A DNA stretch of 60,257 nucleotides, the filler included, from Sluysia triapertura (Eukaryota): the NCBI GenBank assembly GCA_046118255.1. It is 4 parts of 4 records of this genome, joined end to end, with 100 filler letters (N's around TTAATTAATTAA, not from the genome) between each part and the next. Parts side by side here need not be neighbours in the genome. Positions count along the whole stretch, not along the records: positions 49,228 to 60,257 come from JBJNIA010189886.1; 3 more parts are not named here. One strand, written 5' to 3'. The translations under genes were made by a program, and so were the position numbers. Below are positions 9,390 through 60,257 of the stretch, piece by piece (position 1 is the stretch's first letter; every line of letters starts with the position of its first letter). The notes under the pieces are model-generated. The model saw only the letters and a list, made by a program, of their open reading frames with translations, did no database searches and had not been told where the DNA came from.

Positions 9390-9592
9390 TAAAGTGTTGA
9401 GGGCGTCTTTAAGAACTCTATTCTTATTATCATTTTAAAACTTTTTGTATTTTTATATTTTTTAAATTTCCCAAAATTAATGTTTATTAAACGTGAACAA
9501 TTAACTAGTTTAACCTTAAAATTTATCAAAAAGGGCTTAAGGCCCGAATTAACTAACAAGAAAATCATAACTAGCTTATAACATACAGGATA
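9390..9592. repeat. Dispersed repeat shared with 60067-60257
   Basis: AAAGTGTTGAGGGCGT and AAAAGGGCTTAA(G/A)GCCCGAATTAA blocks are collinear at both sites. Confidence 0.75.
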
Positions 9593-16502: not shown

Positions 16503-16591
16503 TGTTAGACTTCATAAAATGGACTGACCGGGGATCGAACCCGGGACCATCGTCTGCGCAGTGCGACTGCTCTACCACTGAGCTATCAGCC
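16503..16591 (-). mobile_element. tRNA-derived SINE head (pseudo-tRNA), cut by the assembly linker
   Basis: A box TAGCTCAGTGGTAGAGC, T arm CCGGG-TTCGATC-CCCGG and a paired acceptor stem, but the anticodon stem has two mismatches. The tail ATTTTATGAAGTCTAACA is shared with a decayed copy at 36966-37025. Confidence 0.65.
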
Positions 16592-16691
16592 NNNNNNNNN
16601 NNNNNNNNNNNNNNNNNNNNNNNNNNNNNNNNNNNTTAATTAATTAANNNNNNNNNNNNNNNNNNNNNNNNNNNNNNNNNNNNNNNNNNNN
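16592..16691. other. Artificial contig linker N44-TTAATTAATTAA-N44 (also 36089-36188 and 49128-49227)
   Basis: An identical 100-nt construct occurs three times. The 12-mer gives stop codons in all six frames. Confidence 0.95.
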
Positions 16692-16839: not shown

Positions 16840-17460
16840 ATAAATTAATTAATTAAAATCTTAATTACTTAATTAAGGAAAATAACATTTGTGTGAATAA
16901 CTTTTGAATGATGAATGCTATGTTCAAACTGCAATTGTGTATGTATGTGTTTTAAAGAGACCTTTCGACGAAGATAGGGTTTGACCGAATTCATGCGAGG
17001 AAAGCCTCTATATTGAATAAAGTCGAATTTTAATTAATTTTAATTTAAAGTGCTGAAATTTCCATATTTAGAATGATGAAGAGATCATTACTATGAAATA
17101 GGAGAACCAAAAATGAGGTTGAAATTTTTGTGAAATTGTTCCTTTGGGAAAGAGAACCTTAAAGATTTTTCATTAAAAAATTGAGTGTGAGGAATTGAAA
17201 ATTAACTAAAATGTAAAACTAAAGTTAAATTCATTACTTTTAAGTATGTCAATAATGATAATTGTTATTTTAATGTAAGAAATGATTCATGAAAATCTAG
17301 ATAGAGTAGAGTAGAAGAAAAATGAGAGTTGATTGTTAATCGAATTGTTTTGTTTTTCTTGACAGGTCGTACCTTGTATGTGTCATTTTAATCTTTAAAA
17401 GAAGTTTTGATGATTTATGTAAGAGTAATTCTTGATTGCGAATGTGGAAATGATTGGATG
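16840..17460. repeat. Dispersed repeat, probable LINE fragment; second copy at about 36350-36950
   Basis: Collinear blocks TTAATTAAAATCTTAATTA, TGTGTATGTAT, ACCTTTCGA, TTCATGC(G/A)AGGAAAG and AGAACCTTAAA. Confidence 0.8.
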
Positions 17461-18019: not shown

Positions 18020-18780
18020 TAATAATAGTTTGTTTTAATCTGATATTTCAAGGTCGGATTAAAACACTATATAAGTAAGCTAATATTTGCAATCCACAAT
18101 AACTTGTTTATACAATTGTTTGAATTGAAAAAATTTTTCGTTGAAGAAGTTGTTAATTTTTCGAGAAATCAATTATTTAAATAGTCACGTTAGTTTAGTT
18201 ATCTTTAAGAACAGATATTATTTTAATATCATTAGTAATATTTTGAGGTAAACTCCTTTAATAAATGTGGACCATATAGAGGTCTGAAGTAAAATTCTTT
18301 TGTAAATTTTTGAAAACGTTATAACTAGTTTTATCTAGTTATTGTAAAATCATTATTATATTTTTAATTTTTTAAATCTATTGTATATTATTAATTAATA
18401 AATTATTTATTACTCGTATTATTTTTTGAACACAAAATTACTAAACTATCTGAAAAGCTTTCATACGCTAGATTTTAATTCTAGCAGGTAAAATCTTTTT
18501 AATCGATCCCATGTAACGGGGTTTACGAAAAATCATTGTTAGATATTTACATTTAATATTTAAATTAAATTAAATAAACCCAGACGTAAGGCAGATCAGC
18601 ATATAACAGTTAACTATCCATTTTTGTACTTAAAGCAAATTAATTAAACTGCAGATTCAGAGCACTAGACAGTGCTAACACTTTAATAAGTTAAATATTT
18701 ACTTTCGCATTAAAATCCAACGGCTAGCCCTCGCTGGTAAGTCCAGTACGTTGATGAACTCACGTTAAAATTTAAACACT
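18020..18780 (-). repeat. Copy 1 (inverted) of a 0.8-0.9 kb non-coding dispersed element
   Basis: The reverse complement contains TTAACGTGAGTTCATCAACGTACTGGACTTACCAG...GCCGTTGGAT and TAGAATTAAAATCTA, as in the copies at 29270 and 42220. Confidence 0.75.
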
Positions 18781-19804
18781 TTATTCTATATCACTCTTTT
18801 TTCACATTCTCACAATATTATTATGAGAGATTTTATCTCAAAAATATTCTAAAAATTTCCATTACTTTACAAAGTTACTCAAAGGTCTTAAACGTTTACG
18901 AAGATTGACATTGTCTTAAATTATTTGAAAGTTCACATGCTCAATGACATTTTAACGATTCAAAACGTTTTCCAAATAAATTTCAAGCTTCTTCAAGGAT
19001 CTCAACAAATTATAAAGGTCTGTGAAATTTCAAGGTATTTTGAATTCTCAAAATTATTCTAGATGCTATCATCTTCATCATTTTCATTCTAGCTATACTT
19101 TATTATGCTTTTCTCATCCTGCTTCTTTCAATCCCATATCTTTTTTATTCATCTATAAATATTTTGAAAAATCTAATATACTATAATGAATAACTTTGTT
19201 GCGTAATTTAAGAATTAAAATGCTTCTAAATGGTTTTTCAGCAATATTTTTCTTAAATTTGTTACTTCATTTTTAAAAAAATTTTTAATAATAAAATATA
19301 ACTGTTTTTTTGGATTCATTTCCAATAATTTTACAGGTTTTGGCTGGTCAGATAAAGCCAAATATTAGAAATAGATGCAGTTAAGAAATCAATTTATTAA
19401 ATAAAAATAATTTTCGACCATAATCGTTCAACTCAAGTTCTCATATTATCATAAATTATTTCAATAACTAGTAATAAATAGGCATATAATTGTGAATAAC
19501 CTTCTACTTCAAAATCATATTTTTGTGGAACAAATATATTTTAATTCTAGTTCTTCGTAATGGTTTTTATGTCAGTTGTATTATGTGTTATATTTTATTA
19601 AAATGATTCTTTGTAAAAATTTGTTTTTTTAATGCTTATTTTCAGTTAAGGATGTGCAGTTATTACTATTGTTAATATTTTATAATTAAAATTTAATTCT
19701 ACAAATTATTATCTTTAAAAAATGCAAAATAAAAATGAATAGGTATTTTGTTTAATTACATATTACAGTTTGTATTAATGCTTGATTTATAAATTATACA
19801 TAAT

Positions 19805-25122: not shown

Positions 25123-27235
25123 CCTTTTGACACCATCCATTTTAATTTGAAATTCAGAACGAGCAGCATTCATATTTGTAATCATCGAGCCAATATTACC
25201 GACTATGGCAGCAAATATTAATACACCGAGTAGAAAGTCGATGGTAACAAAAATAAATTCGAAATTCCTAACTGGTCTTGGAGTTTCACCAATTGTGGTC
25301 AAGGTTAATGTTGACCAATAATAACAATAGATGTATTGCGAGGAAAATTCCGTCCATGTACCCGTAACTGCTATTTTCTATATTAGTTCAATAATAATTA
25401 TTATTATAATTATAATTATAATTATAATAAATAAAAATAATAATAATAGTAATAATACTTCAGTTGATCCCTCGACATTTCTTGGTGGATAAACCCAAGA
25501 ATCGTGACCTAGTCCAATTTGTGTGGATAAGAAAAAATATAAACAAGCATTAATATGAATAATCACCAATATGTAGAAAATAAGTAAAAAAATACGAAAC
25601 ATGTTAGGATAAGTAATTCTAAATAAAATATTAATCGTTATTTTTTAAAGAGATTATTTACTTTCAAATATAAGTATTTTATAATATGATAAAAATTAAT
25701 ATAAAAACCTGGTTTCAGTTTTATCTGCAAATCGAAATATTTTGTATCCTTTAATTAAACGATTGAAACGAAAATAAACTACATCAAATCCACCAATTGG
25801 CGGTATAATACTGAATATTTCCAATGGTATTATACTAGCAAGGTCTAATCTGAAATCCCATTTTAGCAAATAATTTTTGCGTAATTTAACTATATCTGTC
25901 ACAATTAGACCTTGTTCTAAATAACCTGAATCAAATTAAACGTTGTTTTAATTTTGTTCGATATATTTGGAAGTCCTTTTTACAGTTCGTAATGCTTAAA
26001 AGGAAAATGTTAGCAATTTCTATGACAATATTCAAAAAATGACATTTTGTTTTGTCATCTCAAAAAACATAGAAATCATTTGTAGAAATATTTTGAATAT
26101 TAATTTATTTATTCACCATTTGGGCTTTGCATTTTTATTGCGCAGTGATTTAAATATCACCCGGAAAATATTCAACAACGTACCTGATATATTGTAATAA
26201 TTAAATGTATAGAAAGAATGTATATATTGCAATTCTCAGCCCTTTTTCTAAGGATATTTGTATGAAATACATATACCCTTTGTATATTTAAAATATTTTT
26301 CAATTATTAAAACCCTAAAACATATGAAAATAGTAATTTATAAAGACATTTATTAAGTGTTTCCAGTAGCACATTATCACAAATGCATGATAAAACTAAA
26401 GATTTATGTTTCACAATCATTTCTTAAATATTCAAAACAGAGTTTTATCAATAAAATTGTGGATTTTCAACCAATCAAAATTAACTCTATGCGGCCCTAT
26501 TTTATTTCTATTGAATCCTCTACAGGTTCTATTTAATTCCAGCGAAAACACAAAATTTTTACAATTAAACACAAATTCAAATCGAACTTAAATTATTTAT
26601 TTATTTATTTGATTACGTTTATGTTATATTATGTTTAATTAAACAAAATTCTAAATTCCAACTTATCAATATAATAATATAAATATTCCTATTTGTTTAC
26701 GATATTACACTTACATAACTCCGATAAAACTAATCTGCATACTTCACATATAGTACAGTCCTATTTTAGTGGTCCGGACTTGACCATAATGACGAGTTAG
26801 TGCATCTTCGACATATAACAGATTAAATAAACGTTTCAATGTTTATGTTAAATTAGCGCGTCTTGGCTGCCCCGACACTGGACCGAAAAAGGTTAATGTC
26901 AAATAGCAAAACAAGATGCAAACAATTATAAAAAAATTAATACGAAAATTAAAACAAAATATTAATTTATTTTAACAAATCCAAAATTGTCATTTGGTTT
27001 ATTTAATATACAAAACTAACCAATCCTTGAACTAATAAACATATCGATTACATTAAATATATCAATAAAATAATCAATAATAATCCAGAAAACACGGTGT
27101 TGCACATGAATATTTGGAAATATGGCACGTGGTAATAAAATGAGAATGTTGTATATTGATAAGATACTGATAATGCCTAACCATACATAGTACTTATTAC
27201 CGTTATTATCTACCACAAATTTGTTGATTATGCTG
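25123..27235 (-). CDS. Cyclic nucleotide-gated channel alpha subunit (CNGA/tax-4-like), S1-S6 exons (about 27021-27235, 25709-25925, 25459-25618, 25123-25377); C-linker and CNBD not found; possible N-terminal exons at 28150-28620
   Basis: [41 protein letters not shown] (CNGA pore) and [24 protein letters not shown] junctions preserve frame. Confidence 0.9.
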
Positions 27236-29269: not shown

Positions 29270-30200
29270 ACTATGGGATTTTAAAAGTAAGATAAGATCA
29301 TTATAGAATAAAATAAGATTTTAACGTGAGTCCACCAACGTATTTGGCTTACCAGTTAGGGCTAGCCGTTGGATTTGTAAAGAAAAGACTTGTTAAATAA
29401 AGGTGAAACAACTTCTTCAAGTGTCTATAAATTTAATAGGATGCTCTTAATTTAGTAATTTTGCGATTAATTCAGAATTTAAATATATATAGCCAATATC
29501 TGTTAATTTCTGGAGGTATTTTTAAAATGGGAGTCAGTGCAAACTAAATAGTATATGAACAACTGAAATTTAATATTTTATTAACTGAAAAAATATTATT
29601 AGGATTAGTTTACGTAGATCCTATGAAAAGGATCTGTAATAATTTATTTTCCGATATTAGAATCAAATTCTAATAGGAGAAATCACTGCTTTGGTATGGA
29701 TTTTATATTTGAAACTATAAAAATTCAAAAAATGAAACCTTTAATAAATTTATATTAAACACTAAATCTCTAACAAATTTATAAGGTAAAATAAAATGGG
29801 TATATTACGTAGATTTAATTTTAATTCTCAAAATAATAAAAATTCATCAGTGATTTTACGTGAAATCTCTTATAAGATTTCGGAAATGATTATAGAAAAT
29901 TAATTTACGTGTATTTTGAGAGGATATATTTTATATTCAAAACTTAACATCATAAACTAACCTATTTTTGTTGAAGGAGAAATTCAGTAAAAATTTAATT
30001 ATTCGTAGGAATTTTTTTCTTAGTCTTCAAAAGTTTGGCTCCTGTTTTGCTTCGTCGAAAAATATCAACAAAATTATGAGAAAGCTTTAGTCAACAAAAT
30101 TTGTGTTAACAAAAAATTGGGTTGCTTTGTTAAAATTTATAGCTATTTATAGTTACTCAAACTGGCCTTGGCCAGATTAAAACAAAATATTTATTTTATT
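29270..30200 (+). repeat. Copy 2 of the 0.8-0.9 kb dispersed element
   Basis: GTGAGTCCACCAACG core, GATCCTATGAAAAGGATCT, TTTATATTTGAAACTAT and CCTTGGCCAG are all shared with 42220-43060. Confidence 0.85.
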
Positions 30201-32669
30201 TATTAAAACAAAGTAATTTTAAATTTGATTAATTTTAAAGTTTATAATTTAAAATTTAATATAATTACTCACGTTAGCTTATAATCCAATTCGAAAATAA
30301 TCCAATTAATTAAAAAATCAATTCAATTAATAATCCAAAAATTATGACAAAAATTATAATATAAATCAATAAAATTACACATATATTATAAATAGTTAAA
30401 AATCAATATAACAAAACGAAAGTATGTTATCAGATCAATGTGTTATTTTATTTACAATCAAATCAATGTATTATTACAAATCAAAATGCTGCATGTGCTG
30501 TTAATAGTCATTGATATTAATAATCATTGATGTTTGTGCAATACAATAATAATAATTAAATGAAAATTATTAAATTGACCATTTTATTGGTGGTCGAATT
30601 TTCCCGTAAGGGAAAGTAATTTTCAGAATTATGTATATGTGTAAATGTTTTAAAACGTTTTATGTGTAAATATGTTTTGATTTTTTAAATTTGTAAATTA
30701 CTATTTTTATTATATTAAATATTAAAAAATATAAATAATTAAAAACAATAATAAATATTAAAAAGATTACTAAAAATATAATTAAATATTAAAATATTAG
30801 AAGAAAAAAATCATTAAGTAAAAATTTTGTTTTAATTCATTAATTTATTTAGAATTATAAAGAAAATTATCAAATAAAGAAAAAATTAAATTATTTAAGA
30901 TGTTGACTTAGGTTTAATATAAATAGATCGAAAATTTTTTAGAATGACACAAGAAGAAAATTAGAAACAGAGTTAGAACAGAATCATAATCCAAAAAAGT
31001 TTAATCAAGTTGCCGAAGAAAGAAAATCCATGACTACTAAGTAATTTTTTACATGATAAGTTTTAATATATTCACCACAATTTCTTGGCATATCAAAATC
31101 CACTAAAACTATTATAATCTTTTGTACCAACACCTTAAATAGGGCTGGGTAACCTATGTCTAAATTTCAGTATAATCATTTTACTAAAGTGAATTATTAA
31201 AATCCTTATTATTATATCGATGGTACATTTTTCATTTATTAGTCTCTGTATTTACTGTAGTTTATATTACTGTAGTTTAATATATCTTATAAGATTTACT
31301 TATTTAATTTCCGTCAAATAAAATATTAAGTTTGATTTCTAAACAGCACCTTAATAAAAGGGTTGTTTAATTTGTAAAATTTGAAATTAAATTAATTCAC
31401 ACTCTTAATCAATCATTAAACTGATTGTTGTCTAGATTGTAAAATACAAGCAAAAGCTTCCTAAGTTAAGTTATAAAATCCTAATAATACATCTCCAACA
31501 GTGGTATAAATCGTATATATTAGGCGGATCGACTCCTTAGGTAAGAATTAAAATTTTTAAGTTTCAATAAAAATAGTTGCAAATAATATATTTACATATT
31601 AGTTTCAAATCTTAAGGTCACTTTCCTTTAATCAAATACATATAAACAGTAGTTTGAAAAACTACTAATTGCCTAGATTGTCTGAATATATAAAAACTTT
31701 GTATACTATTTGTACCATTTTACGTGAATTTTCAAAATAACCTTGCTGAATTTTTAACATAATACGGATCAAAATTTAACCGATTTTATTATCTTGGTGT
31801 AATCGTTAGTTTCTTATTTAGTAGATATCTCATGGCTTTGTAAATGTGAAGTGAAATAAACTTAAAATTCTTATTTAATTTTTGTAACCGTTTAATTTTT
31901 TGGTTATCATAAAATTTTAGTTAATTTTTCTGATATAGCAGTTATTACTTATACAGTAATAATTGAGACAAACTTCTACATATATTTATAAAGCATCAAT
32001 TTTACGAATATTTTATAATTTAGTGTAACATTTATTTTTAACGTGTTATTGTCTGAAGTGATTAAGTTATTGTATTCGATTATTTTAATAAAGTTTTATT
32101 AGTTTAAGATTATTTGAAAATGAGTATACATTACATAACTTAAAAAATTCGTATTATCTTGATCACTTTAAATTACATTGAAATAAAATAGATTCAACAC
32201 TACATTTTTTAATCTTTTAATATCCTTACCATTAATTAATTCTCTGCGTATAAAATCAGACCATAAAATCCGAATTTCAGGTTCTGCTTAAATAGAATCT
32301 TATATAAACTCTATTCTTTAATTAATCTTCCTATAAAAGGGGATCGTAATTCCATTAATAAGTTAGCAATATAAACTAAATATAATTTCGCTTAGAAGCG
32401 GAATTAGAATTAATAACCAAACACAATCAACCTCCATTAAAGACATACTTCTTGAGAAATTGCATAACACTAAAACAATTCATAATTTGATGTTTATAAG
32501 ATAAGAACTAAAATAAGATTTTTAGAAAAACCCTATTATTGACTGCCATACAGTTTATAAAAATTACACGAATATATAATTAGTAATTAACCTTGAAGCG
32601 TAATCGACCTCTAACATTATTTCGAATTTAAAATCCTACGCAATCGGTGCAATATTAGGATGCTTAGTT

Positions 32670-34540
32670 TCTTAGAAACTGGTGGACCAATTGACTGCCG
32701 CGGTTGCTCGTGGGAAAATGGCTTGGTTTTTAAAGAATACTCCACGTGAGAATGTTCTGCCCAGTGGCGGGGGGGCCAGAAGATCGTCACATTTGGCCGC
32801 TTTAAATAATACTCTGCATGTCCGGCCCAGTCGCGGAGGAGCCAGAAGAAATTCTACAGTTCTTAAAGATACTTCGAAGATACTTTGGCTCCGAAAAATA
32901 TGCTCCGCTTGTACATTTTGGTCCCAGTAGCGGGGGGACCGAAGATCCAACCAATCATCATCCACCTCACTTCCCAACCTTGCTCCTGCTCCTGCCACCT
33001 CTCTTTGTCTGCTTCCTAAAACCGCTCCTGCTTGTTTCTGCCTACCGCATGCTACTTCTCTTAAACGGCATTCTACTTCTCCTCTTTCCTATACTCATCC
33101 ATCTAAATCTTCTAAAATAACCACTCTACTTCCTTCTACGAACCTACCATCTGTTTCTTCATCTAAAAACTTACACTCTGCTCTTCCACCGGTCCGGAAG
33201 TTACGCTCTGCTTTTCGGCATAAGTTTCTTCGTCCCATTCCCCCTACTGATGTTATCCCTCCTGTTATGCTCCTCCTTCCACTAATGTTGTCCGCAATGA
33301 AATTGCGTGCTCTCCTTCTACTTGCTCAGACAATGCCGAGCAGGGACCTGTTGATCCGGGCTTTGCAGCGTCCAAAACGTCTTCTTTTGATCCTTTTCAT
33401 CTTCTTTTTGATGACTCTTCTCGTCCTTTACCCATTGAGCAAAGATCTCCAAGTTTAAACAACTACACCTTTCTAAGAAAACTAACCCATCTGACATCTC
33501 CAATTCACAATATCTTTTTTCTTCTGATGACATTATAACTTTTGTAGATAACCTCAACCTGTCTCCAGACTTTCTCTTTGTACCTGACTATGCAAGTGAG
33601 TCTCTTTATCACAATTCTCCAATCTATCATACCTTTATTGATCACTCTAAGGTTCTTACTGCCACCAAAATCTTTTTCGTTCTTAACTTTAACAAACATT
33701 GGTTCCTTGTCTTTGCCGATAAAAGCACTGGAAAAGCCGAGCTTCTAGATCCTCTTTCCGCTGACCTTCATCCTTCTCGAACTGAGAAGGCTGCATTATT
33801 CTTTCTAAATTATCCTCACTTTATAATTAACCCTCCTTCTCTATCGTTACCGGTTGTAGTCACTCCCTTCAAACCAACTCTTTCGACTGTTGTCCTCTTC
33901 TTTGTGAATTCATTCAGAGCCTCTCTTCTAACAGACGTTGTACCCGTCTTAATGATACTTTTGTGCTCTTCATTCTTAAAGCTCTTTATTCCGAAAAACG
34001 GTTGGTTGGAGCTGGCGAACCTTCCCCGTCCTCCTTTTCTTTTTAATAATTCTATTTCTGCCACTCTGACTATCTTTTATATTGCCACATCAACCGTTGT
34101 GGCCAATCCTTTACTCCTACGGATACAAACAACAACATTGTAAAGCCATCTTGCTTCACATGACCTCAATTCTTCAGATACATCCTTCTTTTGCTTTCAC
34201 TGTCTCCGTGTCCTTTCCATCGGCTTTCTGTTTCACCACTTCCAATCCATTTCCATTGAAATCGACCCTTTAGTTGACCTGTGGCATCACGCTACAACAT
34301 ATAACACATATTTCATTCACTATTACCATCGACCACATAAACTTCATCACAAACAAATATTATATCAAAATAAAAAACACTTACAACATCTGCAGTATCA
34401 CACTTTATCTCCCATAAATCACAAACGCATAATAAAATCTCTTTATTAAAACCATTTTCAGTAATACTTTGTTAAACGTAACGCTTGTTGCCATTTCATC
34501 ATCACCAAGGCAATACCTTTTATTGTATTTTTATTGTACA
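32670..34540 (+). mobile_element. Internally deleted RLE-type non-LTR retrotransposon (NeSL/CRE-like): 5' motif array, Ulp1/C48 protease, C2H2-like finger, 3' end; no RT
   Basis: GC-richer island. Start-less open frame SSDDIITFV...NKHWFLVFADKSTGKAELLDPL (HW at 33697), then after a frameshift LQTNSFDC (C at 33888). YCHINRCGQSF finger relic. The 3' part SVIL..RNACC resembles the CRE-type QRGNA terminus. Clade assignment is inference. Confidence 0.65.
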
Positions 34541-36212
34541 TATTTTATCTGGTAAATTAGTACATTATTATTGTCACTGTTAGACCTCACACAATATACA
34601 CATACTCTGATTATAAAGACTTATAAAAATGGTCACAATGTGTCGAGCAGAAGTTTATATATCGTCTTCGAAATTGTAAGAATATCGATGATTGTTCACA
34701 AAACAATATTCAAATTATACTTTGTACTGATAAAGATAGCGTCAGATTTTTTAAAAAAACTTATCAACAACTGAAAAATATTCATTAAATCAATTATTAC
34801 CAGATATATTGTCTACGTCAATTATTTGGTTGTTAATTGCCGTCATTATATTTAATATAATCAATTGTCGTCGAAAACTAAAACGAAAAAATAACCATTG
34901 GCAAATAAATCGAAAAGACGCAGATCATGCTTCTCTATCTATCATTTTTAGACCAATTCCTTTAATTTCATTTAACGATTATATGATATGAATTATTATT
35001 TAATTTTTAAATGTTTAAATATTTATGTATAGATTTTTATGTTTAAACATTGCATATAAATAAATAATTAATCAATAATATCAAATGAATAAATTCTTCC
35101 TCGAGTTTTTATACATTATTGTTATTAGCAACACAACACTTGATACTGATTATAATACCTATAAATGGTAAATGTCATATTAGCCAATTCAAAAAGGTTT
35201 TCTGTAGTTGAAAATTATAACGAGATGTGTATTGTTTGAGTTATTATAAAGGTGTCTAGATAATCATAGATAACATATTTACTAAATGTTAAAAGTAGCT
35301 TTGTCTAATCGTTATTATGATTATGATTATTATTTTTTCAAATTGTTTTTAAAACTCATTATTGTTGCTATTGTTACTATTATTATTTTATTAATATTAT
35401 TTTTGTTATTATTACTAATTATTATTAATTCATTATTTTTATTTTTTTATTTTATTAATTATATTTTATTATTTTTTATTATTAATTTTATTTTATAAAA
35501 TTTTGTTATTTTTATCATTATTTTATTATTTTTTTACTATTAGTTTTATTAATCTATTATTACTATTATAACTACTACTTTGTTTAAATAATAAACTATT
35601 AGCCATTAGTAAAAAATTTTAAAAAAAGACAACAGTTTGAGAGACCCATTTGAATTTAAAATGTCACAATTTGAATATGATATGCATGATCCAGAACTAT
35701 CGATAGAATATTTATCAGGCGACAATTCAGAGCAGGATGTTGGGTTGGAAGATGCTAAGTCATTAGAAGAAGGAAACTCTTTAGTAGCTACAGGAGAATT
35801 ATTTATAATCTATTTCAGATTTATCATTCATAGAAATCATTCACAAGAACTAATTAACGCGATTTTAGATTATGTTTTTACATCAAGCCAGATTCAGACG
35901 CTGCGGATACCTTGTGCCATCACGTTAGATGTATTAAAAGGAGTCAGAGTTAGCGCCTCACAATAGATAAAAAATCAGCAGGCTCATATTTAGAATGTGA
36001 TTTAGTGACCTTTTTTTGTAGTTATCTTCAATAATTTTGATTTAGAATGGATGATTAGAATGTTCCAGAATGATTCTACGGCTCTTTCNNNNNNNNNNNN
36101 NNNNNNNNNNNNNNNNNNNNNNNNNNNNNNNNTTAATTAATTAANNNNNNNNNNNNNNNNNNNNNNNNNNNNNNNNNNNNNNNNNNNNTTGGAGGGTGTG
36201 ATGAGTGATGTT

Positions 36213-36321: not shown

Positions 36322-37459
36322 CAGTAATTTTAAAAGACGCAACATAAAATTAGATTAATTAAAATCTTAATTAACTTAATTAAGGAAAAGTACGTTTGAA
36401 TGCGGAATGCCTGCCAAAGTGGAAAATGTGTATGTATTTGTCTTAAAAAACCTTTCGATAAAGGTATGGTTTGGCTGAGTTCATGCAAGGAAAGACTTAA
36501 CATTGAGCAAAGTCAAATTTTAATTAATTCTTATTTACGGAATGTTTTTTAATACTTAGAGTGATGAAAATATAATAATTTGAATATGAAATGATTGCTG
36601 TGAAAGAGGAGAATCTACAAGTGAATTTGAAATATCTATAAAGTGGTTTGTTTGAGAATAAGAACCTTAAACGTTTTCCACAAGAAAACTTGGTAAGCAA
36701 ATGTGAAAATCAATTTAAAAGTAAAGTAAATAGTAGATGATCATAATTCAATTTTTTGTGTTCCATATCTGGTAAAGTTTGACAGACCGTACAGTGTAAC
36801 TGTCAAAGTTATTATTTTCGGTTCAATTCTCAAAGAATATTGTAATGATTTGTGTGAGAGAATGTTTGTTTGTAAACTTTAAGAGTGATTAGATAATGAA
36901 AAAGTGTTGGGGTAAAATATCTAAAGTGCCATGATGGTATTATTGAATATAATAAATCTAAAATTGTTAGATATCTCAGTGGAAGAGCAACGAACCCTAG
37001 TCAGCCCATTCTATGAAGTCTAACAAATGTATAAATCGAGAACTTGGAAATTTGATGCTCATTAAGATTATAAACCGCATTATCAAGAAGAGGTCCAGTG
37101 CTGATTCCATGATGTGGTGAAAATTTTTATTTATACATTTTTTATGCAACATAATTTTGTTTGGGATACTAAATTAAAATTATAAATATATATATAAATT
37201 ATATTAGAAATAGCTATTTATTTTTAATTGCAAAAGGAATCCCCAAATTGTCTTAAATAAAGATTTTTAATAAATAAATATTTTTATTTGAAAATAGAAA
37301 GTGCATTTTTAATTGTGTATCACTTCTGGTTCTTTGGATAAATTATTATGTTCTTTGTATTGTCAAAATTATTTTCACTTAATTCATTTGTAGTATCGTT
37401 AAAATAAATTTAATTTTATTATGTATTTTTATTTAAAGAGAGAATTACGATTATTAGTT

Positions 37460-40475: not shown

Positions 40476-40589
40476 AAACGGTTATACAAATTCAATAAAT
40501 AAAAAACTTTTTATTTCAATAATAATAGCTTTTGTTGCTTTTATGTTTTTAATGCTTAGCAATTATGTATCATTATAAAAATTCAATAA

Positions 40590-40840
40590 AAAATACAATA
40601 AAAGGCAGTGCTACAGTGTTGATGGAGCGGCAATAAGCGTTACATGTTAAAAAGTATTAGAAAAATGATTTTGATGAAAAGGTTTTATTATGTGTTTGTA
40701 ATCTATCTGAGATAAGATGTGATACTGCGGATGTTTAAACTTGTTTTATTTTAATGTGATTTGTTTGCGATGAGTTGGTGTAATTGATGGTGATAGTGAA
40801 TGAAATATGTGATATATGTTGTAGTGTGACACTACAAAGA
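40590..40840 (-). mobile_element. Solo 3' fragment of the 32670-34540 element family
   Basis: The reverse complement aligns with 34280-34530 (CTACAACATAT..CACATATTTCATTCACTAT, GCAGTATCACA, GTAACGCTT.TTGCC, CCTTTTATTGTATTTT). Confidence 0.8.
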
Positions 40841-42219: not shown

Positions 42220-43060
42220 ATATGTGGGAATTTAAAGTAGAATAATGCAAAAGTTTAACGTGAGTCCACCAACGTACTGGGCTTACCAGTTAGGACCAGC
42301 CGTTAGATTTGTAGATAAAAGTAAAAGGTAAAAAGAATTGCCTCAAAATGTAGCGTAAGTTGAAATATTCTTTATCTAATTTTATTATTATTATTACTTT
42401 TTCGAATCTTTTAGAAGGTCTGGAAGTATTAAAAGTAATCAAAATAATTCAATAGGTATTTTAAGTGGATCCTATGAAAAGGATCTTTAATAGATATTTT
42501 ACGAAGTTAGAATTAAAATCTAACTAGGGAAATCGTTTCGAAGTATAAATTTTATATTTGAAACTATTTAATTTAATAATAGCAACAATAATTTTATGGA
42601 AAAATTTTATTAAGCAGTGAAAAATAAAATAAAATTTTACAAATTTGAATTATAATAATGATATAATTTTTTTCAATAAGATTTTTTTCAAAAGATTTTA
42701 CGAGGATCTGTTATAAGATCCAAATAATTATTAAGTAATTTGCGTATATTTTATGCTGACATCTTGTGGATATCTAAACCTTAATACAAATAAACTAACT
42801 GATTACTTTTTAAACGATTAAAGACGAATCTGACCAAGATGAAATCGATGCGTTAACTGCTTGAAAGTATTGTTTGTATTTCGACGAAACGGCCATAAAT
42901 GGGATGTGCGAATAATTTTAATGAGTGTTTTTACCAGTAAAAGAATTTTTGCTTAAAATTGTGTTGTTTCAGATCGTTATGAAAATTTTTGTGTGAAATT
43001 GTGATTTATGCTTACTTTATATATATAAATTTTTACTGACCTTGGCCAGGTCAATATTTC
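42220..43060 (+). repeat. Copy 3 of the 0.8-0.9 kb dispersed element
   Basis: Same blocks as 29270-30200; ends near the hairpin TGACCT-TGGCC-AGGTCA. Confidence 0.85.
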
Positions 43061-48515: not shown

Positions 48516-49478
48516 ATTTTTGAGAGTTCTGAGGGAAATTGGACATACGGTCAGGTTGTATATTGAAAATTTGTATATTTTATACGTATTTATAAAATTT
48601 ATGTATTTGTTTTATGTATTTTATTAAGTAATTATTTTTATTATACAAATTTTAATAAAATATTAAATTTAAATATTTTTAATTTTGGTATAAAAAAATT
48701 AATTTTTAATATTAATATGAAACAAATTTTAAAATAAATATTAACTCAAATATTTTAAATTTTACTTTAAAATTTAATGCAAAATAAATTTTAATTAGTT
48801 CTTTTTTTACAAGTTTTATTAAATACTTTAATTAATCAATTTCAAAAATTAAAGTATTAATATAAATAGTTTTAAGTTTATTCAAGACAAATTTAGATAA
48901 ATTTAGAAGTGAAAACTCAGAAGATTTACATTCTGTTAATTGTACTAAATGTCGATGATAAAGTAATTTTTTCTTTATTAGGTTGTAAAATTCACCTTAT
49001 AAGGGAATTTTAAAATCCACTAAAAATCATTTTATTTTTTAAGCAAGAACTTAACTCATAACTGGCCACTAAAAATTCTTAATCGACTATTTGATGGCAA
49101 CACAAACAAAGTTATTCTGTCAAAAAANNNNNNNNNNNNNNNNNNNNNNNNNNNNNNNNNNNNNNNNNNNNTTAATTAATTAANNNNNNNNNNNNNNNNN
49201 NNNNNNNNNNNNNNNNNNNNNNNNNNNTAATAACCATGGTACATTTAAATTTCGGATTTTTAATTTGTACTTTTGATAAATAATAAATTAGTAATGTTTT
49301 TGTAATTAATAATAATAATAATGTTATTTTCATAAATAAACTAAAAAATAAATAACACAAATAAACTAAAAATAATGATAATTAATTTATACAATTTTAT
49401 TTCACTGTTCTTTTTTTTTAAAAAAAGAATTATTTATATTATACTAAAATTTGTATAATATTAATAATAATTTACTAC

Positions 49479-55960: not shown

Positions 55961-58259
55961 AAATAAATTTTAATCTGTATCTCAATATTTGTGAGATTAA
56001 TGGTAAAATTAAATAAATGGCATTATTGGTCGAGAATTGATTGGATGGCCAATGATATTAGAAATAAATTAAATTTTTTGGATATGAGACTGTCAGTGAT
56101 TCTGTTGTGTACCAAGCAACAGTCACTAGTCGACAGTGGTGTGAATTGATGTTAATTGAAAATGTCGGTTAATGATAGGTTATATGACTGGAATTAATAG
56201 TGCCAAAATTGATAATAATAATAATAATAATAAAAATAAAAATAATAATGATAATAAAGATGTCGATAATAATGATTTAAATAATAATAATAAATGAAAT
56301 TAATAATAAATATAATAATAATAATAAAATAAAATAAAAAATGAAAATAAATAATGCAAAACATAAAAATTCTTTTTCTTTACATCTTTTTTTACATAAA
56401 ATACGTAAGTTCTTTTAAATTCTTTTAGATTCTTTTCTTTCTTTAAAAGCTTTCTTTTTCTTTTTAAAATATTTCTTCTAATTCTTATTGAATTTTTTAA
56501 GAATTTGTGTAATGTAAATTAATAAAGGTAACGACGTATTAAATGATGTTAAAAGAAATTAATAAAAGGATGTCTAAAGAAGATAATACGTAACTAAAAA
56601 TGTTAAAGAAGTTCCATTTTGATTCTAACGTTTAAAAATTATTTTGAAATGTGAATTTAATGTTTTTCAATGATGTTAATGACTGAATAGTGTACATTTG
56701 TGAACTTAAAATGTTTTAAAATTTGAAATGTACATTTAATGGTTTTCAATGTAAGTATAATTTTAATCTTATGAGATTGTGGATTTATAATGTTTTAAAA
56801 TGTAAAAGAATTTTAATGAATCTGAAAAATAAAATGTGACGTATGTATAAAAACGATTTAAATTTTGAATAAAAAGGTTGGCCAATGCAGTTACAATTCG
56901 TGTTTGGATTGCATTTAATTTGACATTTAATTCAACATACAGTGTATTTATTTTAGAATCAGGTTAACTATTCTTTATATTCGTATTAACATCAGAATCA
57001 TCACTCTCTAAGTTTAGATGATCGTTCAATATTTTTCAATATTTATATTTTGAATTTTTACTTTAAATTCGTTTTTCAAAAGTCTTTCTATCGAATAAAA
57101 GATAAATAATAATTTGAGAAAACATTAAGTTTATTGATATTCTTTATAAATTTTGCGTGAGTCTAACTCCTGTTTTTATTTTATATGTTTTGCAATGAAC
57201 TCATAGCTTCTCCTAATAATCTAAATTTCCTTATAATCTTTAATAATATTCTAAAGTTCTCTATTAATATTCTCACTTTGTATTAAATTTAACTGGAGGT
57301 ATAATCTTTAATGAATGTAAAATTTAAAACTCTTTAATTATAAAATGTTATTGTTATTTTTTTAATGGTTTTTGAATGGCTTTATTAATGTATTTGATAA
57401 TAATCTTTACTTATATGGATTATTATTCGTTAATAACAACTTAACTTTTCTAGTAATATTCTCACCTTGTATTACTACATGGATTCACCTTATCTAGAAG
57501 TGTGATTCCGTATACTCTCGTTCGATGGTCTGAAAAGGAAGTGCTTAATAAGATATTTGTTTAAATTTTGAATAGACTCTTAAATTTTATGTTGCATTAT
57601 TAAATTTGCTTAATTACTTTATGCAGACTTTAGTTGACGTTGAACATAAATTTTATTAAATTTTACTTGCAATTACAAAATCCAAAAAAATTTACTTAGC
57701 GTTACCTTGTGACTCATTTCTCAACACTTTTCTTAATACAAGAAATAAAAGAAACAAACGATTATTAATTAAACAAATTATAAATGAATATAGTTAATAT
57801 AATTTGAATTATAAAATTTATCTTCTATTTAAATAAAGTTTAGATTTAAATTTTATTTTTATTCGAGACTAGAAATAATTTTTACCTTTAAATTCAATGT
57901 CTTCGAAATAATCATCAGAATAAATGTGTCCGAAAACTTTTTCCACAGTCACTGGAACGGTTACAAGCAATACAAAAACGATTGTCAAATTTGTTGAAGA
58001 TTTTTTCCAAAAGTGATCGCCTCCAAGGTTTCTTGTTCTTGAGTACTTTTTCCAAATTATAAATAATCTATTTAGTTTGATGAATAAATTTATTATTATC
58101 TATCAGACAAATTATACATATAGAAAATTATTGATAGACAAATTATAAATGGGTCATTTAGTGTTAATACCAATCACGTAATGTTATTTCTGGTCTGATC
58201 TTGATAATTTTTTATCGAAAATAATGCTATTAATTTAATAATGCTAGTTCTATTTAATT

Positions 58260-60066
58260 TCAATTTAATGTGTGTGGAGGGTTAGAGTCAGACTTCGGAC
58301 TATCATGCTCAGCAATAAGATCTGAACAAACAGAGGAATAGTCGGAGTCAATATCGATAGATGAAGGTTCGGTTCCGGAAGTCAATGGGAATGGTTCATG
58401 GGGAGCAACTAAGAATGGTGTGACATCAGCCGACTGCTGAATAGTTGAGGTAATGTCTAGTCCAGGTTGCGCCTTCAAGCGCTGAAGATGTTTTAGTTTA
58501 AGAATTTTTGTATCAATCGTCATAGGTTTTGCATCAAAGATAAGGCGGAAGTCGTCACTGCAGTAGTGAAAAACAACAGAGTCAGAGTGAACACTCCCAT
58601 TTTTTACGATAAGGTCTGAGCTGACAGAGAACATCGCTATACAATGAGGATCAGGAGTTTCTTGGCGATTATCAGGATTATTATTTTAAAATATTTATTC
58701 CTAAGAGTCGAACAAAGTTTACGAATCGGTACGATAGTATTAGAAGAGAGTAATGGTAATGAGTCGACCACAGAATCCGGAGGATCAGAAATTGCATGGA
58801 GAGCGAAAGAAGAGGTTACAGCATCAGAAGAGTGCTGAACATGGAAATCAATATTGTTATTATGATTGTTGGTATCGTTTGCATCAGGTTTACGAACCGG
58901 GCGACAGTATTAGAAGAGGATAAAGACTTTGGGTCAGATGTGGTAGTGTTTTCCACAGCAGTTTGATGCGATGATTTTATTGATAATTTGGGTGAGATTT
59001 TGAAATACCTAGAAGGTCGCTGATTTTTAAGATAGAGATAAGAGATTCTAAGACGGCCGTAAAATGCTTACATTTTATTATTGATATGACTGAGGTAGAG
59101 CGATAATATGTGTACAAGCAGCCCGTTTGGAGAAGGGCACCGCGAGGATCTCCCTAATATGGTTACAAAAGGAGAGAGGAAATATTATATTGAAGGAGTG
59201 ATGTGATTCCGAAAGAAAGATGTGGTAATGGAGGAAGTTCCGAACTTCGGAGTGGAGCAGATCAAGGATGGATTGGAAGAAGGAGTTAAAGTAAGTGAAG
59301 GCGCAGCAATAGCCCTGAAAATAAACCTTTTTATTAAGAAAATTAATACAAGAATAAGAGCGGCACAAAAAACACAATCTAACGTTAGCCTTCTCAGAAC
59401 GACGAACGTCGGAAATAGATAAATGTTCACCGGTGCTCAGATTTCCGCGACCTCATGGCTTGTTTCTTGGATCTGAGGGCAACAGCAGGATTACCAGATT
59501 TTCTGGTCCCTCCGTTACTGGGCTTCATTATCGGAGTATTATTTAAGCAGCTCCTCGCGGTGCAGGTTTTGGAATTGTATGTCTTCGAGCAACCTGCTAC
59601 TGGACCGAGATGCGGAGTATTCTTTTGCTTCCGGAATCTTCGGGTTCCCGCGACTGGGTCCATCATGTACCCGTGAAGCCTGGAAGCCAAGTTTTGTCGG
59701 AAACTTCGGTGCCTCCGCGACTGGGACAGTCATGAACATGCGGAGTATTTGTGGATTTTCTTCGGAAACCCCTCGATTAGGTCCAGATCATTATTGATAA
59801 CGAGTACTATGTCATTATGTCAATAGCAAGTAAGGAAAAGTGGGAATTGATGTAGATCACCGCGCAAATCGTGGGGCAAGAATGGTACTCTTAAAAATAA
59901 GGGTCTTTTAATATGGGTCGCATAAAGAGGTCACGAGGATGATATTTGGGCAACGGAGGCAGGTGAAGAAGTACTCTATTTCATCTTCATATAGCCAAAG
60001 GTCTTTATTACTAGGATCACTCCCTAAGCGTATTTCACGATTTGGGAGGAAAGAGCGGATACGACT
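58260..60066 (-). mobile_element. Second, diverged relic of the same retroelement family as 32670-34540
   Basis: Same 5' motif (4-5 copies). DDFRLIFDAKPMTIDTKILKLKHL aligns with DPFHLLFDDSSRPLPIEQ/ISKFKQL of the first element. Shared CTGAGAAGGCT and a C2H2-like relic LICSTPK.GTS. Confidence 0.65.
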
Positions 60067-60257
60067 AAAGTGTTGAGGGCGTTATTAACAATTTTATTCC
60101 TCGTATCAATTTAATCCTTTTCTTTACTTTACATTTTTTTAGTTTTACAAAAATGATTTTAGTTAAAAGAAAACAATCAACTATTTTAAGTTTAAAATCT
60201 AACAAAAAGGGCTTAAAGCCCGAATTAATCAACGAAAAAAATATAATTAATTTATAA

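What the first reader, a model, noticed from the sequence alone, without database searches (positions are those of the whole stretch)
59500..59808. Independent second array of the same motif, minus strand, in a diverged element on another contig
Seen: units at 59704-59749 (AATACTCCGCATGTTCATGACTGTCCCAGTCGCGGAGGCACCGAAG), 59638-59680, 59583-59621, 59500-59540 and a weak one at 59759-59808. The two elements are otherwise only recognisable in short protein-level patches, yet the motif cores stay nearly identical while spacers and copy number differ (3 versus 4-5). The first stem is kept in the best units; the second stem is weaker here than in the first array. Inference: the motif and its multiplication were under selection in the active elements.
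Basis: partly seen in the sequence, partly recalled or inferred. Interest (0 to 1): 0.7.

Follow-up and report, generated by a model that had tools for sequence, protein, structure and literature searches.

The report
Repeated RNA motif in retrotransposon heads
Two decayed mobile elements in an animal genome carry three and four-to-five copies of the same 45-base motif while the DNA between the copies is unrelated, and the motif likely acts as a small folded RNA that would cut or shape the front end of the element's transcript, which is untested.

Summary
The array is real. A profile trained only on the three units at 32736-32944 finds three of the five units here at 28-44 bits, against a shuffled maximum of 20.6. 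Cores are 74% identical between arrays, up to 23 of 24 bases, while linkers do not align, so the constraint is on nucleotides. Structure is weaker than claimed: stem 1 pairs in 41 of 48 cells without covariation, and stem 2 is unsupported here. The array starts where a high-copy repeat stops matching (59817), so this locus is probably a chimera, not one element. The first array precedes a Ulp1-like protease, pointing to NeSL/R2-like retrotransposons; no reverse transcriptase was seen. No Rfam family matches. The words resemble schistosome twister ribozymes in order, but twister and HDV defining helices are missing. Best reading: a tandem 5′ RNA module, likely slowly self-cleaving (0.33). Rivals: non-catalytic RNA module, promoter monomers, Gly-Gly protease sites. 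The scan had not noted this sequence on other DNA.

The parts
59704..59749 (-). Unit U1, best preserved; 21-base spacer; stem 1 6/6
   Evidence: (44.2 bits, cross-trained); recruits extra contigs
59638..59680 (-). Unit U2; 3′ half kept, 5′ half decayed; one base missing in the G run
   Evidence: not recovered by the A-only profile
59583..59621 (-). Unit U3; 14-base spacer; 3′ half decayed
   Evidence: (27.9 bits)
59500..59540 (-). Unit U4; 15-base spacer; long-tail variant shared with A1 and A2
   Evidence: (38.9 bits)
59759..59808 (-). Weak unit U0 at the upstream junction; its 5′ half may belong to the upstream repeat
   Evidence: 13-15 of 24 core bases shared with A units; scores only when included in training
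59810..59825 (-). Imperfect 8-base tandem duplication at the point where related contigs stop matching; likely junction
   Evidence: sequence; record 2 and five further contigs end at 59817-59818 (tables 2, 3, 8)
59818..60065 (-). Fragment of a high-copy repeat family with coding-like frames; by eye the first half of a Ulp1-like domain
   Evidence: depth and pieces; no Pfam hit and no alignment to the other protease
58250..59490 (-). Decayed, frameshifted element body downstream of the array; Cys motif near 59380 (protease Cys box or zinc finger, undecided) and zinc-finger-like pieces near 59140, both by eye
   Evidence: composition, frames; no Pfam, homologue or fold hit
32736..32782 (+). Unit A1 of the first array
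32808..32848 (+). Unit A2 of the first array; 23 of 24 core bases identical to U1
32899..32944 (+). Unit A3; the only unit whose two crossing stems beat shuffles (p=0.005)
33505..33980 (+). Frameshifted Ulp1/C48-like protease domain of the first element
   Evidence: PF02902 E=0.021 and E=0.13, both under the family cut-off; 8 of the 10 best Foldseek rows are Ulp1/SENP or related ubiquitin-like proteases, all E>0.05, on a pLDDT 45 model

Best explanation
The unit is a nucleotide-level conserved motif repeated in tandem in two decayed mobile elements that are likely NeSL/R2-type retrotransposons, and it is predicted to work as a small folded RNA near the 5′ end of the element's transcript that would cut itself slowly just upstream of its first stem. 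Shown: the repeat, its conservation against the linkers, a 6-pair complementarity, and the junction at the head of this array. Inferred: stem 1 (CUCCGC with GCGGAG) stacks on a second short helix made with the bases that follow it, so that the conserved AUA leader leaves at the helix junction, where HDV-like ribozymes cut (PMC4908430); the conserved unpaired CAGU and GAAG would form the core. Cleavage would free the element from a host read-through transcript and allow cap-independent translation, as described for R2, L1Tc and Perere-3. Arrays would persist because cleavage is incomplete or because the reverse transcriptase jumps onto released upstream pieces.
For: Cores 74% identical between arrays, linkers unrelated. 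The codons a protein-only reading needs are rare in the elements' own frames (CCC 4 of 44 Pro, CCG 5 of 44, AGT 4 of 56 Ser) yet CCC is kept in 6 of 8 and AGT in 7 of 8 units. A one-base length variant of the tail occurs in both arrays. Stem 1 pairs in 41 of 48 cells on the sense strand and 37 of 48 on the antisense strand. A3 forms both stems, p=0.005. Three twister words from Table 1 of PMC8501958 match in order better than all 150 shuffles in 4 of 8 units (A2, U1, U3 and, by score 19 against 18, A3). The array begins within about 10-30 bases of a junction. Ribozymes at 5′ ends of such elements are established (PMC8501958, PMC6765202, PMC12203849).
Against: No covariation: 2 pairs change on both sides, 345 of 500 shuffles do as well; stem 2 pairs in 52.5% of cells; cognate halves pair no better than swapped ones (p=0.37). 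7 of 8 units and the majority sequence (p=0.16) do not beat shuffles as pseudoknots; no unit folds unusually (best z -1.63). Twister T1, P4 and the UAA leader are absent, and with the true stem planted 27 of 300 shuffles reach the same word score. No HDV fit in register. Efficient cutters in tandem would remove all upstream units at each transposition. One frame is nearly open through each array (1 stop in 122 and in 95 codons; p=0.06 and 0.085), and element-like sequence continues about 100 bases upstream of A1. No RNA data.
Confidence: 0.33

Rival explanations
1. Non-catalytic RNA module: each unit is a hairpin or pseudoknot inside the 5′ part of the translated region that binds the element's own protein, helps cap-independent initiation or shields the 5′ end, like the pseudoknotted 5′ RNA of silk-moth R2. 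Several copies add binding sites.
For: Explains tandem retention and the nearly open frame through both arrays, in which units are read in different registers. Same nucleotide-level conservation. Precedent in PMC12203849 and PMC11331408 (passages).
Against: Same lack of covariation. Open-frame signal is only suggestive (p=0.06, 0.085). Does not explain the twister-like word order.
Confidence: 0.27
2. DNA-level internal promoter monomers, as in rodent L1: each unit holds two inverted GC-rich factor sites around an initiator-like word, and copy number tunes transcription.
For: Tandem monomers at LINE 5′ ends are retained through transposition (PMC5381506, passages). The arrays are CpG- and G-rich against the element bodies. 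Needs no covariation. Likeness to a GC box and initiator is recalled, not tested.
Against: The T of the first half-site never varies (8 of 8) while its partner is A or G (3 and 5 of 8), as G-U wobble on the sense RNA allows. Spacing between half-sites differs by 6 bases. Rodent monomers are 200-650 bases and near-identical, these are 59-91 bases apart with unrelated linkers.
Confidence: 0.15
3. Coding repeats: units encode N-T-P-x(2-5)-P-S-x-G-G, di-glycine sites at which the element's Ulp1-like protease cuts its own polyprotein, possibly overlaid on an RNA signal.
For: Spacers are 15, 21 or 24 bases in 7 of 8 units and a related contig lacks a net 6 bases. A1 and A2 lie in frame with an ATG at 32718 and with the downstream coding frame. 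A Ulp1-like domain follows the first array.
Against: pN/pS is 0.81 in this frame and 0.61-1.39 in the other five. Rare codons are fixed and the third base of the NGC codon is kept while the first varies. Unit-to-unit distances are 72, 91, 59, 67, 61, 81; only two are multiples of three. The spacer classes reduce to about three length changes, so the triplet signal is weak. No protein homologue holds the peptide (weak search).
Confidence: 0.15
4. No function of the array as such: a 5′ piece was duplicated and passed between element families by recombination or template switching, then decayed.
For: Junction at the array head; no covariation; an unchecked note describes a satellite amplified from a retrotransposon's 5′ twister module (e1-7814003).
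Against: Recent transfer would carry linkers too, and they do not align.
Confidence: 0.1

Closest known systems
[quoted passage not shown]
   Same: Same order of words: CUCC-GC, then a GUCCCA-like word, then GGAG followed by G; similar size; same proposed place in a non-LTR element.
   Different: No P4 3′ strand, T1 pairs 0-1 of 3 in all 8 units, leader AUA instead of xAA, no P1; occurs in tandem; carrier is Ulp1/zinc-finger type, not RTE.
HDV-like ribozymes of R2 and L1Tc (PMC4908430, PMC6765202, PMC12203849; passages read)
   Same: A 5′ stem whose 3′ strand runs into a G-rich pair-forming step and then a C(A)GAA word; leader would leave at the helix junction.
   Different: P3 with a 7-8 base loop forms in 3 of 8 units, with P1.1 in 2 (U1, and A1 by three G-U pairs); no P2 or P4; no in-register descriptor hit; single copy in R2.
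5′ RNA pseudoknot in the ORF start of Bombyx mori R2 (PMC12203849; passages read)
   Same: Structured RNA near the start of the coding region of a restriction-endonuclease-type LINE.
   Different: Not repeated in tandem there; sequence and fold could not be compared (primary papers not held).
Rodent L1 5′ UTR monomers (PMC5381506; passages read)
   Same: Tandem CpG-rich units of variable number at a LINE 5′ end.
   Different: Much longer, homogeneous units; here only a 45-base core is shared.
NeSL and Utopia-1_TSP retrotransposons with an N-terminal Ulp1-like protease (PMC4640811; passages read)
   Same: Ulp1-like domain followed by a zinc-finger-like stretch in the first element.
   Different: No reverse transcriptase, endonuclease or target site is left to test; Ulp1 also occurs in Ginger1 and Mutator DNA transposons (PMC2836005, passages read).

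Membership tests
Twister ribozyme | P2 plus the GC pairing (CUCC-GC with GC and GGAG) | tested here: met
   41 of 48 cells pair, as one continuous 6-pair stem
Twister ribozyme | P4 hairpin closing loop L4 | tested here: not met
   no bases between the GC and GGAG strands in any of 8 units
Twister ribozyme | T1 pseudoknot, CCC with GGG | tested here: not met
   0 of 3 pairs in 5 units, 1 of 3 in 3 units
Twister ribozyme | xAA leader with the U-A cleavage step | tested here: not met
   leader is ATA in 5 of 8, never xAA
Twister ribozyme | Match to Rfam twister models | tested here: not met
   no twister hit at E up to 10
Twister ribozyme | Self-cleavage | not testable with these tools
   needs an in vitro assay
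HDV-like ribozyme | P1 stem starting at the cleavage site | tested here: inconclusive
   a 6-pair stem is present, but its role as P1 is assumed
HDV-like ribozyme | P3 with 7-8 base L3 and P1.1 | tested here: not met
   P3 3/3 in 3 of 8 units, together with P1.1 2/2 in 2 of 8
HDV-like ribozyme | P2 and P4 completing the nested double pseudoknot | tested here: not met
   descriptor finds no hit on this array's sense strand; two off-register sites elsewhere; no Rfam hit
Hammerhead ribozyme | Conserved core words | tested here: not met
   0 matches on either strand of both arrays (core pattern recalled)
NeSL/Utopia-type retrotransposon (carrier) | Ulp1-like protease ahead of zinc fingers | tested here: inconclusive
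   first element: weak Pfam hits for both halves and consistent fold rows; second locus: by eye only
NeSL/Utopia-type retrotransposon (carrier) | Reverse transcriptase and restriction-like endonuclease | tested here: inconclusive
   none in the translated fragments; both fragments end before they would be expected
NeSL/Utopia-type retrotransposon (carrier) | Target-site preference and target duplication | not testable with these tools
   no full copy and no genome held
L1-type promoter monomers | Promoter activity and capped starts in the units | not testable with these tools
   no RNA run to lay

The most novel reading that the evidence does not exclude
A previously undescribed class of very small (about 45-base) self-cleaving RNA, twister-derived but without P4 and P1 and with a rewired second pseudoknot, kept as tandem arrays at the 5′ ends of several Ulp1/zinc-finger retrotransposon families of one animal lineage.
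Probability: 0.17. Interest if true: 0.85.

Novelty: new variant of a known kind. Interest (0 to 1): 0.5.

Why it matters
How restriction-endonuclease-type LINEs outside rDNA make their RNA 5′ ends and start translation is largely open. A 45-base motif shared by otherwise unalignable elements is a cheap, direct test object. If it cleaves, it is a new small ribozyme fold, or shows that a twister core can be rewired, and tandem cutters would need a new account of how 5′ ends are rebuilt. If it does not, it is still an unrecorded cis-element of these elements. I found no description in nine searches of the held library; Repbase and subscription papers were not searchable.

Tried and rejected
Rfam, E up to 10, on 58000-60257, 32600-33100 and 59450-59850: only chance-level rows; a recalled likeness to SRP helix 8 got no SRP hit and is dropped. 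Pattern scans: 0 in viral contigs, 0 in prokaryote genomes; 27 loci in metagenomes, all single matches in 44-74% GC DNA; the two that looked best were read and lie in what I recognise from recall as isoamylase coding sequence, so all 27 were set aside as chance. Protein searches: none for the protease piece, the array peptide or 58263-58685; the representative library gave 2 unrelated repeat proteins; PDB by sequence gave nothing. The fold of 59081-59452 gave no coherent match. One run holds the stretch and may be the assembly's source; no RNA holder listed. A hit at 26850-26912 (19 bits) is within the null range. A -1 frameshift reading (UUUAAAG/U before A1 and A2) was set aside by inspection: the spacer is 4 bases, the -1 frame stops within six codons, and 6 of 8 units lack the heptamer. 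tRNA-derived origin: no tRNA call at either array. An intron reading of 59470-59807 was considered by eye and not tested. A codon-periodicity model was too weak to place frames in the array. Read depth for the first array is not available, so its 5′ boundary is open. PMC3256348, PMC2728621 and PMC3308841 were not held; no supplements were read, and those of PMC8501958 list further twister variants that may bear on the comparison.

Full report
Setting. The window is a chain of contigs joined by N-flanked linkers at 16592-16691, 36089-36188 and 49128-49227, about 24% G+C, with animal-type genes: a diaphanous formin, a glutathione transferase, a DNA polymerase alpha B subunit and an ion channel. 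Earlier notes on this genome call the host a planarian flatworm; I did not test that. No whole genome is held. Two stretches stand out as GC-richer and C-rich on one strand, about 32600-34300 (plus) and 58250-60065 (minus).

Observation. The five units are at the stated coordinates. A profile of two blocks with a free spacer, trained on the three units of the first array only, scores U1 44.2, U4 38.9 and U3 27.9 bits; the best of 500 shuffles of the element scores 20.6. Trained on U1-U4 it scores A1-A3 at 35.8-43.2 against 24.7. U2 and U0 are not among the 16 best hits of the A-only profile. So three units are independently secure, U2 keeps its 3′ half, and U0 is doubtful.

Motif against linkers. 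Over 24 core positions the 15 between-array pairs average 0.74 identity (best 23 of 24, A2 with U1), the 13 within-array pairs 0.67; of 28 linker pairs one reaches p=0.05. Outside the motif the two loci do not align as DNA or protein. In the one run that holds this DNA (possibly the assembly's own source, so not independent), depth is flat at 18.7 from 59344 to 59703 and at 59776-59811, and rises only over the U1 core, where one contig of depth 55 lacks 1+4+1 bases of the spacer. The motif therefore sits in at least one further place, again without shared linkers. Both arrays contain 15- and 21-base spacer classes and both tail variants, so they likely descend from one older array.

What carries it. 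Downstream of the first array lie a Ser/Pro-rich frame and a frameshifted Ulp1-like protease: PF02902 hits both halves weakly (E=0.021; E=0.13), and a low-confidence model (pLDDT 45) ranks Ulp1/SENP-type proteases in 8 of the 10 best Foldseek rows, all with E above 0.05 (best Z 4.5). A zinc-finger-like stretch follows, by eye. That order fits NeSL and Utopia-1_TSP (PMC4640811, passages), but no reverse transcriptase was seen, and Ulp1 also rides on DNA transposons (PMC2836005, passages). At the second locus, record 2 (953 bases, 37 other letters over 59818-60065) and five further contigs stop matching at 59817-59818, no listed piece or joint carries them on into or past the array, and an imperfect 8-base duplication marks the place (8 of 200 laid records were shown). 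The upstream piece reads by eye like the first half of a Ulp1 domain, without support from Pfam or pairwise alignment. I put about two to one on a nested or recombined locus in which the array heads the downstream element, against an array inserted inside one protease gene.

RNA structure. Stem 1 pairs in 41 of 48 cells, but only one of its six pairs changes on both sides, and shuffled partners do as well. Its variation is of the G-U type on the sense strand (41 against 37 cells on the antisense strand), a mild pointer to RNA. Stem 2 pairs in 52.5% of cells, and own halves pair no better than swapped halves (p=0.37). Only A3 beats shuffles as a pseudoknot (p=0.005; 1 of 8 units; majority sequence p=0.16). 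No unit has an unusual folding energy. All copies are decayed, so this is weak evidence either way, but the structure is not shown.

Coding reading. One frame gives a repeated peptide ending in Gly-Gly, a tempting site for the protease; spacers are multiples of three in 7 of 8 units and A1 and A2 follow an ATG in the frame of the downstream coding stretch. Against it: pN/pS 0.81, within the 0.61-1.39 of the other frames; rare codons fixed across arrays; a one-base tail variant in both arrays; and only 2 of 6 unit-to-unit distances in frame. A protein-only constraint cannot keep third positions while linkers are randomised. Still, one frame has a single stop through each array (p=0.06 and 0.085), so the arrays may be translated, with units read in different registers.

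Comparison. Rfam has no match. Three words of the schistosome twister consensus (PMC8501958, Table 1) match in order with p=0.007 in 4 of 8 units; with a shuffled stem planted, 2 of 300 controls reach 19 matches, with the true stem planted 27 of 300. Most of the likeness is thus the stem itself, and the comparison was chosen after seeing the motif. P4, T1 and the xAA leader are missing. An HDV-like fold lacks P2 and P4 and has P3 with P1.1 in 2 of 8 units. It is not a member of either family; it may work like them.

Mechanism. I commit to a slowly self-cleaving 5′ module (0.33): conserved unpaired bases gather at a predicted helix junction, the array heads its element at this locus, and such ribozymes are the rule at 5′ ends of promoter-less non-LTR elements (PMC8501958 sections; PMC6765202, PMC12203849, PMC11331408 passages). 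Cleavage alone can drive cap-independent translation (PMC13725137, abstract and section 13). Tandem retention is the main difficulty; weak cleavage, as reported for silk-moth R2, or template jumping would allow it. A non-catalytic RNA module (0.27), promoter monomers (0.15), Gly-Gly protease sites (0.15) and neutral duplication (0.10) remain.

Verdict. A real, selected, undescribed motif in tandem arrays of decayed elements; structure and function unproven. New variant of a known kind, interest 0.5; a new small ribozyme class has probability 0.17 and would deserve 0.85.

Noticed in passing
window 59818-60065 (-): Piece of a high-copy repeat family; many contigs match at about 82-86%, with summed depth up to several thousand against 18.7 for the array.
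   Followed up: partly
window 60066-60257 and 9390-9581; 34287-34536 and 40584-40829: Two other dispersed repeats (77% and 79% identical pairs) bound the two elements, one upstream of the second and one downstream of the first.
   Followed up: no
window 16519-16593 (-): tRNA-Arg(GCG)-like call at a contig end; perhaps part of the tRNA-bearing repeats that earlier notes describe in this genome.
   Followed up: no
window 18713-18790, 29304-29387, 42238-42321; 16842-17217 and 36347-36725: Further dispersed repeat families (70-86% identity).
   Followed up: no
window 32855-32900 (+): The A2-A3 linker holds what looks by eye like a collapsed unit (leader and tail without the middle).
   Followed up: no
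window 32927-32932 (+): The only stop in the long frame through the first array is a TAG inside unit A3, between the ATG at 32718 and the Ser/Pro-rich frame.
   Followed up: partly
window 26850-26912 (-): Partial motif-like word inside an ion-channel gene region; 19 bits, within the shuffled range.
   Followed up: yes
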